In this document: positions 13,730-57,970 of the stretch, piece after piece
Layout of the letters: each line of letters starts with the position of its first letter
Position numbering within the stretch: position 1 is the first letter of the stretch
Assembly (NCBI RefSeq): GCF_009914755.1
Contig: NC_060936.1
DNA: 64,000 nucleotides
Direction: 5' to 3' (one strand)
DNA from: the human T2T-CHM13v2.0 reference genome, Homo sapiens
Made by a program: the position numbers and the translations under genes
The notes under the pieces: model-generated
The model's database searches: none
What the model was told of the DNA's origin: nothing
The model's input: only the letters and a program-made list of their open reading frames with translations

Positions 13730-14180
13730 AACAGTATATTCCTTAATAGCCAGAAAGTAGAAACAGCACAAATATCCATCAACTGATATATTTTTAAAGC
13801 GTGGTATTTCCAAACAATGGAATATTAATTCAGTCACAAAAAGGAATGAAGTATTGATACATATTATAGTATGGATAAACCTTGAAAACATTATGCTAAG
13901 TGAAACAAGCAAGACACAAAAGGATACATATACTATTACATTGATATGAAATGTCCAGAATAAGCAAAATCAGAGACAAAAAGTAGATTCATCGTGGCCA
14001 GGGGCTGAGGGGAGAAGAAAATGAAGAGTGTCATAATAGGTACTGAGTTTCTTTTGGAGATGGTGAAAACCTTCTGAAATTAGATAGTGGTGGTAGTTGC
14101 GTAACTTTGCGAATATACTAAAAATCACTCAATTATACACTTTCAAAGAGTGCAATTTATAGTATGTAAATTGTATCCCT
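13730..14180 (+). mobile_element. L1M 3'-end fragment
   Basis: AAAAGGAATGAAGTATTGATACAT...ATGGATAAACCTTGAAAACATTATGCTAAGTGAAA...AAATGTCCAGAATA are typical of L1MB/MC 3' ends. Confidence 0.8.
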
Positions 14181-14388
14181 AAAAAGGTATGGGAAGAGTC
14201 TGGAAAAAAATATAAGGTAGGGTAGATTTCTCTAAATGAATATGCTAACATATAAATACAACTATACGTATATATCACTTCAAAAACTTTGTCGATTCTC
14301 CTAACCACAAAGACTAACCTATTCTCACCATTAATAAATAAGGCTTTGTCTCAAGGGCCTGAACCAAAGCAGAGCTTCTCTAACTTAC

Positions 14389-14642
14389 ATCACTGAACTC
14401 CAGAGGTAAACTCTCAGTGGGCTGAAGCTCAGCAGCACTCAAGTACAGATCCATGGGGCCGGCTTCCAGATCGTCTGGCACAGACAGTACCTGCTCGGGC
14501 TTATACATCTGAGGAGGCAACTGGAAATGCAGTGGGCAGCAGGGATCCTCAGAGAGGCTTACAGGAACAGGTTTGTTGCAGGGTACCTCTTCAGATCCCT
14601 GGCAGCACTTGAAGAGAACCTGATTCGTATCCTGACAAATAT
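14389..14642 (-). CDS. KANSL2: KANSL2 exon 8 ([14 protein letters not shown]...LPLEFSD)
   Basis: Acceptor ctacag|AT, donor GAT|GTAAGT, 254 nt, phase 1 to 0. Matches ORF-track 14380..14778. Confidence 0.95.
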
Positions 14643-15755
14643 CTGTAGAAAAATGGTCAAGGGAAATAAAACACAATCTATCGAAAGCATAAAATACAAA
14701 TAGCATTGTCTGCCACATAAAACTCAAGGTGTGGACTATATAAGATAAATTACAACTACATTTGATACAGAATACCAAATGCAGTTAGCAATTTTTAAAG
14801 TTACTTCTCAAAATAAATGTCATTTACTAGCATCAAATTCTAGCTCTACCAGTAATTTAAAACTTGTCCCCAACCTCCTTTTCAGGATCCTGGTCATTTA
14901 AACTAGACACCATCCCATTCTCCCTTAAGCAAGTAGCAGTAACACTCCTAGGAACACACACATATTCAGAAGAAACATGTAGTGGCAAATGCAAATAGCC
15001 TTGAAAATGCCCCTAAACAGCCCTTCCAAAAGAGTCAAGCGATACAATGTCTCTGCTCCCTTAGCAGACTGGCAAAGTTTGCAACAATTTCTTGGACCTC
15101 GTTTCCAAAGATGATTACATGATAAATTCATTTAAAGCACCACTGGAATAGGGGGAAACAGAGCTCTAGTAAAAGTCACTAGGTATCATATCCTAACAAG
15201 AAATTAAATATACATGCCTTTTTTTTTTAGGGGAGTGTGCTAGTACAGAGGAATCCTTTTATGATCCTAAAGGAAGAAGAAAATTTTGTGTATGAAGGCC
15301 CATTGAAAAAAAAAAGTATTCTAGAAACATTCCAAGGACTCTATTAACAACTTTTGTTAAAGGTAGAAGAAGAAAAGGGCTATATTTCCAAGTTAGCAAA
15401 GAAGCTCTGTAGGATGAACCAAAATTGAGATGATTAGATACAATAAAATTCAAGTTACTTTACAAAACACATTTTATGCAAGTGCTACCATTTCTTGAAA
15501 TCTGTTAACTACCTGGTTATCTTCCTAGATTAATAAACATTATTTTAAAATTTGACTTATTTTTAACCAGAAAACACAATTTTTCTTAAACTGATAGTAC
15601 CTGAATTATGGAGTTATAATTTTCAACTCAAAACTTTTATGGTAATTTTTTTAAATAAAAAAACTAACATACATTATAATTTTTAAAACCATATGAACTT
15701 CCTTGAATAAAGCTATTTCTTTCAATGCATACTTGGAAATAACTAAACTCTCAAG

Positions 15756-15947
15756 CAGGGTGTGACAACTGTGGCACTACCAACACTGTAGGCCAGGTAC
15801 ATCTTTGTTGGAAGAAGGATGTATAGCAGCATTCCTGGCCTCTATCCACTAGCTGTCAGTAGCACCTCCATCTGAGTTGTAACAACCAAAAATTTCTCCA
15901 CACATTGCCAACTGGAAAACAAAATGGCCCCCAGTTGAAAACCACTA
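15756..15947 (+). mobile_element. MER20-like hAT-Charlie DNA transposon relic
   Basis: GCAGCATTCCTGGCCTCTATCCACTAG...ACAACCAAAAATTTCTCCACACATTGCCAA...CCCAGTTGAAAACCACT. Confidence 0.75.
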
Positions 15948-16122
15948 CTCTAAAGAAACAGAAGATAGTACAAGGCAAACAAATATTTATTGAATGATCA
16001 AATGAATAAACATATGAATCTAATGGGAATCATCAGATTTGCACTATGCGCTTAAGAAAATCTAAGCAATATCTAATGTGCTTAAGAAGCCCACTCTTAA
16101 TATTTAAAATATTATCCATTAA

Positions 16123-16347
<225 letters not shown>

Positions 16348-17486
16348 TAACTCCTGACCTCAGGTGATCAGCCCGCCTCAGCCTCCCAAAGTGTTGGGAT
16401 TACAGGCGTGAGCCACCACGCCTGGCCAAGAACTTTTTTTTATTGGAATTCAAAGGACTTTCACAAGTCTCTTATGTATTTAATACCACAATATCCTAAA
16501 AAAGGACTCCCCCCATCATCCTCCACCCGCTTTCCTTTCAGATGGGGCAAAAGAGGTAAAAAGAAGGGAATGGTTAACCTACAACTAGAGTCTGGGTCCT
16601 TCACTTTCAGTCGAGTGCTGTCTCCATTAGACCACAGTAAAGAGTTAACAGGTCACCAATGGCAGTCGCATCTTTCTCTGGGATAAGGACTTAAGGAAGG
16701 GTAAGTGACTTAGGCAACTATGGAGTGGAAAGGAAAGAGCATAAAAGGAAAAAAAATACTTCCCTTCTCTTTTCAAATACATTTTCAATTTTGCTTTATA
16801 TTTATATTTTAATAAGCTATTTGACTACAGTATTATAATATCTAAAATAGTCCTTAGTATCTGTAAACTGAGTTTTTTCCCTTATAAAAGTAATTCATGC
16901 TCGCCTTAAAAAAACAAAAAATAAAAGAACAGTGAAAAAAGGGCATTCACAACCACACCATGCACAAATTATCACATTTCTGTATTGTTCCCTTCCAGTA
17001 TTTGGTTTCATGCAATTTCAGACACCGTACAGAATTCCATATCCTGGAATGTCACTATCATTTTGCTGTCATTCATAAATTCTGTTAAATATATTTAATG
17101 CCTGAAAATATTCCACACTATGTTGTGTCATTAATTTATCTACCTATTCTCCAGCTCTAAAAATGTTAAGGCTGTCTCAAGTTGGAAGAATATTTCATGT
17201 AAAAATATTGGTCTGCATTTGATTATCTCCTTAAAATAAATTCCCAGAGGTAAAAATTACCATATGAGGAAATATGAATTACTGTCAGATTGCTTTCCAA
17301 AAAGCTTTTATCTATTTATATTCCCACTGGCAATATTTAGAAGGGTCAATTTCACCATACTCTCACCTACTTTTGAAATTCACTGACTCATTTTTGAAAA
17401 ATTGTATATTTTAAATTTTATTTTAAAACAAATATATGTACAAATATCAATTTTATAGATTTTTAATTTTCCTTATTTCCTATTTA

Positions 17487-17899
17487 CAGTTGACCTTTAA
17501 CAACACAAGCTTGAACTGCACGGGTCTACTTACACGTGCATTTTCTTCTGCCTCTGTCATCCCACAGACAATAACACTTCCCCCTCCACTTAACAAAAAG
17601 ACCATGAGAATAAGGACCTCTATGATAATCCACTTCCATTTAATAAACAGTAAATATATTTTCTCTTATGATTTTCTTAGTAACACTTTTTCCTAGTTTA
17701 TTTTAAGAACACAATATATAAGACATATAAACATATAAAATATGTGTTAGGAAGCTATGTTGTTGATAAGGCTTCTGATCAACAGTAAGCCATAAGGCTA
17801 TTAGCAGTTAAATTTTGGGAGAATCAAAAATTATATACAAATTTTCAACTGTGTAGGGGGTCAGCACCCTAACCCCATGAATTGTTCAAAGGCCAACTG
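17487..17899 (+). mobile_element. Tigger2a-like (TcMar-Tigger) non-autonomous DNA transposon
   Basis: TA|CAGTTGACCTTTAACAAC ... TTGTTCAAAGGCCAACTG|TA, i.e. terminal inverted repeats with TA target duplication; 413 bp. Confidence 0.85.
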
Positions 17900-17911
17900 T
17901 ATTTATAGTGA

Positions 17912-21240
<3,329 letters not shown>

Positions 21241-21481
21241 GTGAGGGCCCTAACCACACAAAAGGATAATACTAGAAGTTCACAGTGCAAAATCATCCTT
21301 TCAACTGGGGTGGAAAACCCACAGTAATTTTTTAAGTTTATAATTAGATTTAACAGCATTAGGATCCTAATAAGCAAGTTAAATCAGAAACCTTGAGACA
21401 ATTACAAATATTTTATGTATATTTTGGGACCCAAGTATTAAGGCTATAAATAAATATTAGCCCACATCTATGAAAAACGAC

Positions 21482-21618
21482 TCATGTTTCTTTCTAATGA
21501 ATTGACCATTACATTTCCAAAGTTATGAAATGGCCAACAGACCATAGAAAGACAATTCTTTAGGCTCCTGCTTGAAACCAACAGCTTCAGCAAACTGCTG
21601 GCCTTGATTCAGGGCCAA
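21482..21618 (-). ncRNA. SNORA2B: H/ACA box snoRNA SNORA2B in KANSL2 intron 7
   Basis: 137 nt, TTGGCCCTGAATCAAGGCC...AGAAAGAAACATGA, with H box AAAGAA and ACA+3. Paralog of the other two copies. Confidence 0.92.
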
Positions 21619-21717
21619 AGGAAAACAAAATCCTTCAATTAAGCAAACTAGCACAGAGATTCCCACTAGTCTTCAAACTAGCAAACCACAGCCTTAACAG
21701 GCAGAGTAAAAAGATAC

Positions 21718-21814
21718 GGGTAAGGCAGTGTCTGGTCATTGGAAGAGACTGATTGGAACAACGAACATCATCCACAAAGGCCAAGCACCTCTGACTGGAA
21801 CGAGTGGTATGGGC
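21718..21814 (-). CDS. KANSL2: KANSL2 exon 7 ([32 protein letters not shown])
   Basis: Acceptor atttcag|GCC, 97 nt, phase 0 to 1. Encodes a Cys/His zinc-finger-like motif (C-x8-C-x11-C-x2-H) completed by exon 8. Confidence 0.93.
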
Positions 21815-23130
21815 CTGAAATGGAAAAAGACAGATAAAATAGACCCACAAAAGAACACACAAACAATTACGATGAAAATAGTTATATAAGAAAAGCACAT
21901 CCTAAAGGCTAGAAATTCAACATTTAACAAAAATAGATTCACCAATATTATGCAAAAGACAAAAAACTTTAAAACCTAGTGCATAAAGAATGAGTCAACC
22001 TCAATCCCAAATACACCTCTCCATATTCTAAAAGTGTGATATAGCCTATTTAACACAAATTTTGTCTTTTACCAACAGAACTCTGAAATTGCAGCCTTAA
22101 GTGGAATCTCAACAAATGAAACAAAATTACTCTTACTGAAACAGAGACCAAGGGTCTGAAAAACAAATTTAAGAATGATCACTTAATTCTTCTTCCTATT
22201 AACCTTACTTCCTGACATTCAATTGCTCCTATTCTACCTTCCCACCTTTTAAAACAAGATTCCCAAGCAATTTAGGATTAACCTGTGCTTATTTCTGAAC
22301 TGAAGAATATCTGAACCAAGGACTTAGAAACTTTTCCCAACTACTCAATATGCAGATGAGAATACTGAGGCCCAGAAAATTTAAGCTAACTGTGCAGACA
22401 CAGAGCTGGTCAGTGGGGACTCACACTAGAATCCATGTCTCCTGACTTCAAGCTAAGTGCTTTCACTATAACCCATGTGCAAAAAGTCAGATTTCAGATC
22501 CAAGACTGGACATAGGGAGTTCAAGACCAGCCTGACCAACATGGAGAAACCCCGTCTCTACTAAAAATACAAAATCAGCCAGACATGGTGGCACATGCCT
22601 GTAATCCTAGCTACTCAGGAGGCTGAGGGAGGAGAATCACTTGAACCCAGGAGGTGGATGCTGCGGTGAGCCAAGACGGCGCCATTGCACTCCAGCCTGG
22701 GCAACAAGATTGAAACTCTGTCTCAAAAAAAGACTGGACATAGTGTTTTGACAATTACTCTAACTTTGTAAATAAAGTGAACATGAACAGGCACGGTGGC
22801 TCATGTCTGCAATCCCAACACTTTGGGAGGCCGAGGTGGGTAGATCACGAGGTCAGGCATTGGAGACCAGCCTGGCCAACATAGTGAAACCCCAAAAAAT
22901 ACAAAAACATTAGCTGGGCGCATGGTGGTGGGCACCTGTAATCCCAGCTACTCGGGAGGCTGAGGCAGGAGAATTGCTTGAAACTGGGAGGCAGAGGTTG
23001 AGAGATCTCAGTGAGCCGACATCGCACCACTGCACTCCAGCCCGAGTGACAGTGCGAGACTCCGTCTCGAAAAAATAAAAACAATAAATAAAGTGAACGT
23101 ATATACCTTAAAGGTATACACACAAATTAC

Positions 23131-55235: not shown

Positions 55236-57970
<2,735 letters not shown>

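What the first reader, a model, noticed from the sequence alone, without database searches (positions are those of the whole stretch)
16579..16700. Second U12-like acceptor inside the minor intron opens a MIR-derived poison exon (twintron-like arrangement)
Seen: within KANSL2 intron 7 the minus strand reads CCTTCCTTAAGTCCTTATCCCAG|AGAAAG. This is TTCCTTAAG (8/9 match to the U12 branch consensus TTCCTTAAC) with its A at 16691, 14 nt from a CAG at 16678-16680, the same geometry as the true acceptor at 14643. Joining exon 7 (phase 1) gives QKDATAIGDLLTLYCGLMETALD* with TGA at 16607-16609. Candidate U2 donors follow at TT|GTAGGT (16582) or AG|GTTAAC (16578). The exon body (GTGGTCTAATGGAGACAGCACTCGACT...GACCCAGACTCTAGT) resembles a MIR 5' end. 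Established: stops upstream of exon junctions trigger NMD, and snoRNA host genes often use unproductive splicing. Inference: the minor spliceosome can choose a proximal acceptor, releasing SNORA2B from a shorter U12 intron while sending the mRNA to NMD, with the remaining intron removed by the major spliceosome.
Basis: partly seen in the sequence, partly recalled or inferred. Interest (0 to 1): 0.8.

Follow-up and report, generated by a model that had tools for sequence, protein, structure and literature searches.

The report
Known alternative exon in KANSL2 minor intron

Summary
On the minus strand TTCCTTAAG (16698-16690) lies 13 nt before CAG| (16680-16678). A 95-nt exon follows (16677-16583) with an in-frame TGA (16609-16607) and the donor TT|GTAGGT (16582).

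Sequence alone gives modest support: the exact motif with this spacing appears in 20 of 1000 shuffled introns.

Print decides it. Kwon et al. [quoted passage not shown] Their ZRSR2 CLIP peak maps to window 16672-16704 (max 32, against 36 at the exon 8 acceptor). They list TT|GTAGGT as a U2-type donor "effectively spliced" to the exon 8 acceptor. Olthof et al. 2019 score cryptic-exon use in this intron at 15-53% in 8 human tissues. KANSL2 isoforms are in a published NMD-substrate set of snoRNA host genes.

Still open are the MIR origin, NMD of this particular isoform, conservation and any regulatory role. SNORA2B lies in both the short and the long intron, so acceptor choice cannot change its release.

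Verdict: real and already known. Interest is low to moderate.

The parts
21718..21814 (-). KANSL2 exon 7, which ends in codon phase 1
   Evidence: Hub annotation. The coding sequence to this point is 973 nt.
21709..21719 (-). U12-type GT-AG 5' splice site CC|GTATCTTTT, shared by the long and the short minor intron
   Evidence: one occurrence in 14600-21760. Olthof 2019 file 1 gives human CCCGTATCTTTT a score of 75.6. Kwon 2024 Tables S6 and S7.
21482..21618 (-). SNORA2B H/ACA snoRNA, starting after 98 intron bases (21717-21619); it lies inside both U12 introns
   Evidence: Rfam RF00410, 159.5 bits, E 6e-31. Hub annotation.
16690..16698 (-). U12-type branch-site motif TTCCTTAAG of the internal acceptor
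   Evidence: Named as the branch point sequence in Kwon 2024 Table S6.
16678..16680 (-). Internal 3' splice site CAG|, 13 nt after the branch A at 16691
   Evidence: The hg19 site chr12:49056413-49056462 in Kwon Table S4 lies 2035 nt from the exon 8 site, equal to 16678 minus 14643.
16672..16704 (-). Published ZRSR2 CLIP peak (hg19 chr12:49056407-49056439; max 32, sum 887) mapped onto the window
   Evidence: Kwon 2024 Table S3. The offset hg19 = window + 49039735 was derived from the exon 8 acceptor.
16583..16677 (-). Alternative cassette exon '7a', 95 nt, which shifts the frame
   Evidence: Its boundaries are those in Kwon Tables S6 and S7.
16607..16609 (-). Premature TGA in the exon 7 reading frame, 24 nt before the 7a/8 junction and 278 nt before the 8/9 junction
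   Evidence: with the annotated exon 8 length of 254 nt.
16577..16584 (-). U2-type donor TT|GTAGGT of exon 7a
   Evidence: one occurrence. Kwon Table S7 lists the KANSL2 U2-type donor TT|GTAGGT, 96 nt from the internal acceptor as in the window.
16573..16580 (-). It departs from the recalled donor consensus at +3, +5 and +6 and has no published support that I saw.
   Evidence: It is not in Kwon Table S7.
16147..16426 (-). Alu element just downstream of exon 7a, in the same orientation as KANSL2
   Evidence: Sub-threshold SRP RNA matches, which are typical of Alu. The Alu profile masked it.
14643..14665 (-). Annotated exon 8 acceptor: branch site TTCCCTTGACC and CAG|. It is used by both spliceosomes ('dual-type').
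   Evidence: Olthof 2019 branch-site score 85.5. ZRSR2 peak hg19 49054334-49054405, max 36. Kwon main text and Table S7.
14389..14642 (-). KANSL2 exon 8
   Evidence: Hub annotation. The translation continues the open frame.

Best explanation
KANSL2 intron 7 is a GT-AG minor (U12-type) intron that holds a real alternative cassette exon, called 7a here (window 16677-16583, minus strand, 95 nt).

The U11/U12 machinery that recognises the exon 7 donor CC|GTATCTTTT can pair it with either of two U12-type acceptors. One is the annotated acceptor at exon 8. The other is the internal acceptor with branch site TTCCTTAAG, 13 nt before CAG| at 16678. When the internal acceptor is used, a 5040-nt minor intron containing SNORA2B is removed. 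The remaining 1940 nt, from TT|GTAGGT to the exon 8 acceptor, is removed by the major spliceosome. That makes the exon 8 acceptor a site used by both spliceosomes.

Exon 7a shifts the frame and carries an in-frame TGA 278 nt upstream of the exon 8/9 junction. The product is therefore predicted to be an unproductive mRNA open to NMD.

Shown in print: both splice sites, ZRSR2 binding on the internal acceptor, use of the U2 donor, frequent cryptic-exon reads in this intron, and NMD-sensitive KANSL2 isoforms at the level of the gene. Inferred: that the minor spliceosome catalyses the 7-to-7a junction, that this particular isoform is degraded by NMD, and that U1 at the 7a donor helps define the upstream U12 acceptor across the exon.
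For: Sequence:
- All motifs, the spacing, the phase and the stop codon are as described.
- The exact branch motif with its spacing turns up in 20 of 1000 shuffled introns.
- The exon 7 donor has CC at -2/-1 and departs from the U2 donor consensus at +4 and +5 (consensus recalled). Use by the major spliceosome is therefore unlikely. Kwon et al. report no AG at -2/-1 of any validated GT-AG U12 intron.
- Both acceptors have A at exon position +1, the bias Kwon et al. describe for U12 acceptors.

Kwon, Jin and Song 2024 (PMC10853781; I read sections 10, 15 and 22, passages of section 16, and the supplementary tables by search):
- Table S6 has the row chr12 49,056,438-49,061,475 (-) KANSL2, CC|GTATCTTTT, TTCCTTAAG.
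- Table S4 has two KANSL2 U12 3' sites, scores 12.425 and 9.625. They are 2035 nt apart, which equals 16678 minus 14643.
- Table S7 lists the U2-type donor TT|GTAGGT, the U12 donor CC|GTATCTTTT and one shared acceptor. The donor-to-acceptor distance of 96 nt matches the window.
- Table S3 has ZRSR2 CLIP peaks that map to window 16672-16704 (max 32, sum 887) and 14599-14670 (max 36, sum 1652).

Olthof 2019 (PMC6717393; passages and supplement files 1, 6 and 8): CAT9, meaning a cryptic exon inside the minor intron, passes the filter for KANSL2 in 6 of 8 human tissues. The MSI values are 0.53 bone marrow, 0.15 cerebral cortex, 0.29 heart, 0.37 kidney, 0.22 liver, 0.41 lung, 0.48 spleen and 0.50 testis.

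Olthof 2021 supplement: KANSL2 CAT9 is 0.29-0.52 in 3 of 11 human samples.

Lykke-Andersen 2014 (PMC4233243): one KANSL2 isoform is in the stringent NMD-substrate set and three are in the relaxed set. KANSL2 is also listed as a host of several snoRNAs.

A 2026 preprint names KANSL2 among NMD-coupled splicing events that differ between cell types.
Against: - I saw no read-level junction data. [quoted passage not shown]
- RefSeq lists a single KANSL2 transcript without this exon (hub table).
- CAT9 counts any read that joins a flanking exon to a point inside the intron, so those numbers need not all belong to exon 7a.
- In Olthof 2021, KANSL2 CAT9 was 0 in 8 of 11 samples. In that paper's morpholino experiments cryptic-exon use as a class was 'not affected at all' by minor-spliceosome inhibition. 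That does not fit simple dependence on the minor spliceosome.
- The branch motif ends in G where the consensus has C. The site's score in Table S4 (9.625) is below that of the exon 8 site (12.425). I did not find a definition of that score.
- The site carries the source label 'U12DBv2' in Table S4 yet is called novel in Table S6. I could not resolve this.
- The NMD evidence does not say which KANSL2 isoform is involved.
- The last 20 intron bases before CAG are 80% pyrimidine, so the major spliceosome could also use this acceptor.
Confidence: 0.74

Rival explanations
1. A regulated switch. The choice between the proximal and the distal U12 acceptor is tuned, for instance by minor spliceosome activity or by factors bound to exon 7a. 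It sets how much KANSL2 mRNA is made while SNORA2B output stays constant.
For: - Cryptic-exon use varies 3.6-fold between tissues, from 0.15 to 0.53.
- A preprint lists KANSL2 among NMD events spliced differently between brain cell types.
- snoRNA host genes are enriched for NMD isoforms, and KANSL2 is in both lists.
- The human exon 8 branch site is weaker than the mouse one (85.5 against 100), which would favour competition.
- Srsf10 and CENATAC are precedents for regulation through minor-intron competition.
Against: - SNORA2B lies in both introns, so its release does not depend on the choice.
- There are no perturbation data for this exon.
- There is no mouse Kansl2 cryptic-exon row in the Olthof 2019 table: the only Kansl2/KANSL2 row of any kind in file 6 is the human one. 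The mouse intron is 1862 nt against 7073 nt in human. Deep conservation is therefore unlikely.
- Tissue variation in such reads can reflect differences in NMD efficiency or read depth.
Confidence: 0.15
2. The exon is real, but the major spliceosome uses its acceptor with some other upstream donor or after exon 7 is skipped. The ZRSR2 peak would then reflect binding of the U12 machinery to a decoy site that is never spliced.
For: - The last 20 intron bases are 80% pyrimidine, which would serve U2AF.
- Kwon et al. call the evidence for the novel U12 introns weak.
- Cryptic-exon use as a class did not respond to minor-spliceosome morpholinos.
Against: - Table S6 gives the intron with the exon 7 U12 donor as its 5' end.
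- The ZRSR2 peak is nearly as high as at the true acceptor, 32 against 36. Kwon et al. found ZRSR2 at only 161 of 221,261 annotated U2-type 3' sites.
- The exon 7 donor departs from the U2 donor consensus (recalled) at several positions.
Confidence: 0.08
3. A chance motif. The branch-like sequence is a coincidence, and the exon is negligible splicing noise.
For: - TCCTTAA alone is at background frequency, 13 in 128 kb.
- Looser versions of the motif with the same spacing arise in 176 to 315 of 1000 shuffled introns.
- RefSeq does not annotate the exon.
Against: - A ZRSR2 CLIP peak sits exactly on the site.
- Its donor is reported as effectively used.
- Cryptic-exon reads are 15-53% in eight tissues.
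- The exact 9-mer with its spacing arises in only 20 of 1000 shuffles.
Confidence: 0.03

Closest known systems
This same site as listed by Kwon, Jin and Song, Nucleic Acids Res 2024 (PMC10853781), Tables S3, S4, S6 and S7
   Same: The donor, branch-site string, acceptor position and U2 donor string are identical. ZRSR2 binding is shown, and the exon 8 acceptor is called dual-type.
   Different: In what I read, the paper does not discuss the stop codon, NMD, the snoRNA or a repeat origin. KANSL2 occurs once in the main text. I could not see the supplementary figures, which are PDFs.
CENATAC (CCDC84) intron 5: competing U12 and U2 donors that share one 3' splice site
   Same: One acceptor is used by both spliceosomes. 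One of the two products carries a premature stop and is thought to be degraded.
   Different: In CENATAC the two donors compete directly for one acceptor, and both are highly conserved. Here there is also a second U12 acceptor that creates a cassette exon, and conservation is unknown.
Cryptic or alternative exons inside minor introns: Tmem87b exon 11a and Mapk9 exon 7a (Olthof 2019, category CAT9)
   Same: An exon is embedded in an annotated minor intron, its use depends on tissue, and it involves both spliceosomes.
   Different: Those exons are mutually exclusive with the upstream exon and keep the protein reading frame. Exon 7a is added after exon 7 and ends the frame.
Srsf10 autoregulated minor intron (Meinke 2020, PMC7244321; I saw the abstract in a listing only)
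   Same: Competition around a minor intron controls the productive output of the gene. Kwon Table S6 also lists two SRSF10 U12 introns that share one donor string and one coordinate but differ at the other end.
   Different: Srsf10 is shown to regulate itself. Nothing of the kind is known for KANSL2.
snoRNA host genes with NMD-sensitive isoforms (Lykke-Andersen 2014, PMC4233243)
   Same: [quoted passage not shown]
   Different: That work is about genes as a whole. It does not tie the NMD isoform to the minor intron or to exon 7a.
Vertebrate twintrons (Janice 2013, PMC3564746) and the Drosophila prospero twintron (known to me from the review's citation and from recall)
   Same: A U2-type intron is nested in a U12-type intron.
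   Different: KANSL2 does not occur in the main text of Janice 2013, which holds the table of 18 human twintrons. Those twintrons are conserved across vertebrates.

Membership tests
U12-type (minor) intron, GT-AG subtype: the short intron 21717-16678 | 5' splice site close to |RTATCCTT | tested here: met
   |GTATCTTT matches 7 of 8 positions. It is the same donor as the accepted KANSL2 minor intron, scored 75.6 in Olthof 2019.
U12-type (minor) intron, GT-AG subtype: the short intron 21717-16678 | Branch site close to TTCCTTAAC, about 10-15 nt before the 3' splice site (the distance range is recalled) | tested here: met
   TTCCTTAAG matches 8 of 9 positions, and the branch A is 13 nt from the last intron base. 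The motif arises in 20 of 1000 shuffles.
U12-type (minor) intron, GT-AG subtype: the short intron 21717-16678 | No AG at -2/-1 of the upstream exon, and A favoured at +1 of the downstream exon (Kwon 2024) | tested here: met
   CC| precedes the donor, and the acceptor reads CAG|A.
U12-type (minor) intron, GT-AG subtype: the short intron 21717-16678 | Bound by minor-spliceosome factors in cells | tested here: met
   A published ZRSR2 CLIP peak maps to 16672-16704 with max 32. This was read from a supplement, not measured here.
U12-type (minor) intron, GT-AG subtype: the short intron 21717-16678 | The junction depends on U11, U12, U4atac and U6atac | not testable with these tools
   No perturbation data for this junction were seen.
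Poison (NMD-coupled) cassette exon | The exon is used in cells, with working splice sites on both sides | tested here: inconclusive
   The donor is reported as effectively used. CAT9 is 15-53% in 8 tissues. No read-level data tie both junctions to one molecule.
Poison (NMD-coupled) cassette exon | A premature stop more than 50-55 nt before a downstream exon junction | tested here: met
   The TGA at 16609-16607 is 24 nt from the 7a/8 junction but 278 nt from the 8/9 junction (and annotation).
Poison (NMD-coupled) cassette exon | The isoform rises when NMD is blocked | tested here: inconclusive
   KANSL2 isoforms are in the stringent (1) and relaxed (3) NMD sets, and a preprint mentions the gene. 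Their exon structures are not given.
Poison (NMD-coupled) cassette exon | Conservation, the usual mark of a regulated poison exon | not testable with these tools
   No other mammalian genome is on hand. The mouse intron is 1862 nt and has no CAT9 row.
Nested U2/U12 introns (twintron) as defined in PMC8329584 | An intron of one type lies within an intron of the other type and shares at most one splice site | tested here: met
   The U2 intron 16582-14643 lies within the U12 intron 21717-14643 and shares only the 3' site.
MIR SINE-derived exon | Significant similarity to the MIR consensus or to other MIR copies | tested here: inconclusive
   No repeat library is on hand. Self-searches, a genome search, an iterative profile search with shuffled controls and an all-against-all comparison gave no support.

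The most novel reading that the evidence does not exclude
The internal U12 acceptor may be a recent, possibly primate-specific gain. It sits in an intron that Alu insertions have expanded to about four times the mouse length, and it now competes with an exon 8 branch site that is weaker in human than in mouse. On this reading, the share of KANSL2 pre-mRNA diverted to NMD depends on minor-spliceosome activity and on exon definition by U1 at the exon 7a donor. The level of an NSL-complex subunit would then be uncoupled from the output of the three SNORA2-family snoRNAs that the gene hosts. That would be a lineage-specific dosage control built on two competing acceptors of the minor spliceosome.
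Probability: 0.12. Interest if true: 0.55.

Novelty: already known. Interest (0 to 1): 0.3.

Why it matters
It shows that a reader can recover, from raw sequence alone, a minor-spliceosome acceptor that took CLIP experiments to find, which is useful as a calibration of the scan. Biologically the locus is a clean natural case of three things: one U12 donor choosing between two U12 acceptors, an acceptor served by both spliceosomes, and a frame-ending exon in a gene that hosts snoRNAs. If the choice proved to be regulated, it would link minor-spliceosome activity to the dose of a chromatin regulator. As it stands, the sites and their use are in print. The stop-codon and NMD reading follows directly from them, and no regulatory role has been shown.

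Tried and rejected
MIR origin. All of the following were blank or inconclusive.
- blastn and nhmmer of 16420-16800 against the rest of the window found nothing on the exon body.
- An Rfam scan of 14000-22000 at E up to 1 found nothing in 16430-16800.
- ARAGORN found 0 genes.
- A search of the window's own genome with 16440-16760 found only the locus itself at E up to 0.001. This also means there is no recent paralogue or processed pseudogene carrying exon 7a.
- I fetched 200 kb of neighbouring DNA. A default nhmmer run gave no hits, and a run at full sensitivity gave only hits at E of 1.4 or worse.
- A first iterative profile drifted into Alu and was discarded.
- After 375 Alu matches were masked (102,727 of 264,000 bases), the real query gave 10 first-round hits, against 3, 2, 3, 5, 7 and 4 for six shuffled queries. 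The iteration grew no more than the controls did.
- 0 of the 45 pairs among those 10 hits resembled each other.
- An all-against-all comparison gave 141 non-self hits, none touching 16440-16760.
- My own recollection is that the exon body looks somewhat like the 5' part of MIR. That is recall only, not a test.

RNA structure. The fold of 16560-16720 has a z-score of +0.80, so nothing special.

Literature.
- Searches for KANSL2 with minor intron, U12, poison exon, NMD or snoRNA host, and under its old names, found no main text that describes exon 7a as a poison exon. Supplements are not indexed by that search.
- KANSL2 is not among the 18 human twintrons of Janice 2013.
- The mouse Kansl2 event in Olthof 2021 is CAT2, skipping of both flanking exons, not a cryptic exon.

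Full report
**What is in the sequence**

The finding is accurate to the base. On the minus strand the window reads CCTTCCTTAAGTCCTTATCCCAG|AGAAAG. TTCCTTAAG lies at 16698-16690 and CAG at 16680-16678. The second A of the motif (16691) is 13 nt from the last intron base. At the annotated exon 8 acceptor, TTCCCTTGACC...CTACAG|, the matching distance is 14 nt.

Exon 7 ends ...CC|GTATCTTTT. The coding sequence up to that point is 973 nt, which is phase 1. Joining it to 16677 gives QKDATAIGDLLTLYCGLMETALD followed by TGA at 16609-16607. The donor TT|GTAGGT starts its intron at 16582, which makes the exon 95 nt long. The weaker AG|GTTAAC follows four bases later.

The stop codon lies 24 nt before the 7a/8 junction but 278 nt before the 8/9 junction. 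The usual 50-55 nt rule for NMD (established knowledge) is therefore met.

**Is it more than chance?**

TCCTTAA alone occurs 13 times on the two strands of the window, which is background. With 7-13 nt and then YAG it occurs four times in the window and once in intron 7. In 1000 dinucleotide-preserving shuffles of the 7075-nt intron:
- the exact TTCCTTAA[CG] with that spacing appeared in 20;
- TCCTTAAN with that spacing appeared in 176;
- TCCTTRAN with that spacing appeared in 315.

The sequence alone is suggestive and no more.

**What is in print about the sites**

KANSL2 is an accepted gene with a minor intron. Retention of the mouse Kansl2 phase-1 minor intron was validated after loss of U11, and the gene is used as an RT-PCR marker of minor-spliceosome failure.

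The decisive source is Kwon, Jin and Song, Nucleic Acids Res 2024 (PMC10853781). I read sections 10, 15 and 22, passages of section 16, and searched the supplementary tables.

[quoted passage not shown] One is chr12 49,056,438-49,061,475 (-) KANSL2, 5' site CC|GTATCTTTT, branch point TTCCTTAAG.
- Table S4 lists two KANSL2 U12 3' sites, hg19 49054378-49054427 (score 12.425) and 49056413-49056462 (score 9.625). They are 2035 nt apart, exactly 16678 minus 14643.
[quoted passage not shown] The donor lies 96 nt from the internal acceptor, as in the window.
- Each of the four strings occurs once in 14600-21760, so the mapping is not in doubt.
- Table S3 holds ZRSR2 CLIP peaks from HA-tagged ZRSR2 in H1 cells. 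One peak, at hg19 49056407-49056439 (max 32, sum 887), maps to window 16672-16704, directly on the branch site and CAG. The other, at 49054334-49054405 (max 36, sum 1652), is on the exon 8 acceptor.

[quoted passage not shown] It also says that ZRSR2 overlapped only 161 of 221,261 annotated U2-type 3' sites. [quoted passage not shown]

One oddity remains. The internal site carries the source label "U12DBv2" in Table S4 yet is called novel in Table S6.

**Use of the exon**

Olthof et al. 2019 (PMC6717393) define CAT9 as spliced reads that join a flanking exon to a point inside the minor intron, that is, cryptic-exon use. Their human table has a CAT9 row for the KANSL2 intron (hg38 chr12:48660620-48667692). 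It passes the filter in 6 of 8 tissues. The MSI values are 0.53 in bone marrow, 0.15 in cerebral cortex, 0.29 in heart, 0.37 in kidney, 0.22 in liver, 0.41 in lung, 0.48 in spleen and 0.50 in testis.

Olthof et al. 2021 (PMC8034651) have the same row at 0.51, 0.29 and 0.52 in 3 of 11 human samples and 0 in the other 8.

These numbers do not name the exon. Together with Table S7 they point to exon 7a.

Against a simple dependence on the minor spliceosome, the 2021 paper reports that cryptic-exon use as a class was "not affected at all" by morpholinos against minor snRNAs.

**NMD and the snoRNA link**

In Lykke-Andersen et al. 2014 (PMC4233243), Table S6 lists KANSL2 as a protein-coding host of SNORA2A, SNORA2B and SNORA34. 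Table S4 lists one KANSL2 isoform in the stringent set of 1969 NMD substrates and three in the relaxed set of 7267. Their exon structures are not given.

A 2026 preprint names KANSL2 among NMD-coupled events that are spliced differently between brain cell types derived from iPSCs.

NMD of KANSL2 isoforms is therefore documented for the gene, but not for exon 7a.

Rfam places SNORA2B at 21482-21618 (159.5 bits), so 98 intron bases separate the U12 donor from the snoRNA. It lies in both the 5040-nt and the 7075-nt minor intron. Acceptor choice cannot change whether it is released.

**Most likely mechanism**

The exon 7 donor has CC at -2/-1 and departs from the U2 donor consensus (recalled) at +4 and +5. 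A junction that starts there is therefore almost certainly made by the minor spliceosome.

The U11/U12 machinery can pair this donor with either branch site. When it takes the proximal one, the rest of the intron, from TT|GTAGGT to the exon 8 acceptor, is left for the major spliceosome. The exon 8 acceptor then serves both machineries, as Kwon et al. conclude.

U1 at the exon 7a donor probably helps recognition of the upstream U12 acceptor across the 95-nt exon. This is inference, based on the exon-definition cooperation reviewed in PMC8329584 and studied by Olthof 2021.

By that review's definition (nested U2 and U12 introns that share one site but not both) the arrangement is a twintron or nested intron.

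**Evolution**

The mouse Kansl2 minor intron is 1862 nt, against 7073 nt in hg38 and 7075 nt in this assembly. The mouse exon 8 branch site TTTTCCTTAACT scores 100, and the human TTTCCCTTGACC scores 85.5. The Olthof 2019 splicing table has no mouse Kansl2 row at all.

The human intron is full of Alu elements. Conservation in other mammals could not be tested here.

**MIR origin**

This was not confirmed. No repeat library is on hand. Window self-searches, Rfam, ARAGORN, a search of the whole assembly, an iterative profile search over 264 kb with shuffled controls, a pairwise test of its hits and an all-against-all comparison gave nothing beyond noise. These methods are weak for repeats as old as MIR, so the result is inconclusive, not negative.

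**Verdict**

For the same reason it is already known: both splice sites, ZRSR2 binding, the dual-type acceptor and frequent cryptic-exon use are in print. The poison-exon label follows directly from the sequence.

The MIR origin, NMD of this isoform, conservation and any regulatory role remain open.

My searches found no main text that calls this exon a poison exon, but supplements are not indexed by that search. KANSL2 does not occur in the main text of Janice 2013, which holds the table of 18 human twintrons.

Noticed in passing
window 14655-14665 (-) compared with mouse, from Olthof 2019 supplement file 1: The exon 8 branch site is a perfect consensus in mouse (TTTTCCTTAACT, score 100) but weaker in human (TTTCCCTTGACC, score 85.5). 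The human internal site, TTCCTTAAG, is closer to the consensus. This could explain why the internal acceptor competes well in human.
   Followed up: partly
window 14643-21717: The intron is 7075 nt in this assembly but 7073 nt in hg38 (Olthof coordinates). Kwon's hg19 donor coordinate is likewise 2 nt short of the offset fixed at the acceptor end. There is therefore a 2-nt length difference somewhere in 16678-21717.
   Followed up: no
window 17957-21041 and 16147-16426; L002-L021: Alu load is very heavy. Sub-threshold SRP matches tile much of intron 7. An Alu profile masked 102,727 of 264,000 bases (39%) of the window plus the next 200 kb. This accounts for much of the fourfold expansion of the intron relative to mouse.
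   Followed up: partly
just beyond the window end (about 68548-68597 by the hg19 offset), CCNT1: Kwon Table S4 lists a ZRSR2-bound U12-type 3' site in CCNT1 (hg19 chr12:49108283-49108332, score 10.665), so the neighbouring gene also has a minor intron. It falls outside the 64-kb window. A CCTTRAC-plus-YAG match at 57889 (-) inside CCNT1 is at chance level.
   Followed up: no
L003:4541-5094 and L015:1927-2988: Two stretches, about 125 kb apart downstream of the window, each had up to 22 matching partners in the all-against-all comparison after Alu masking. They are probably internally repetitive or a shared repeat.
   Followed up: no
window 21482-21618 (-): SNORA2B starts after only 98 intron bases, next to the U12 5' splice site and more than 4.8 kb from either acceptor.
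   Followed up: no
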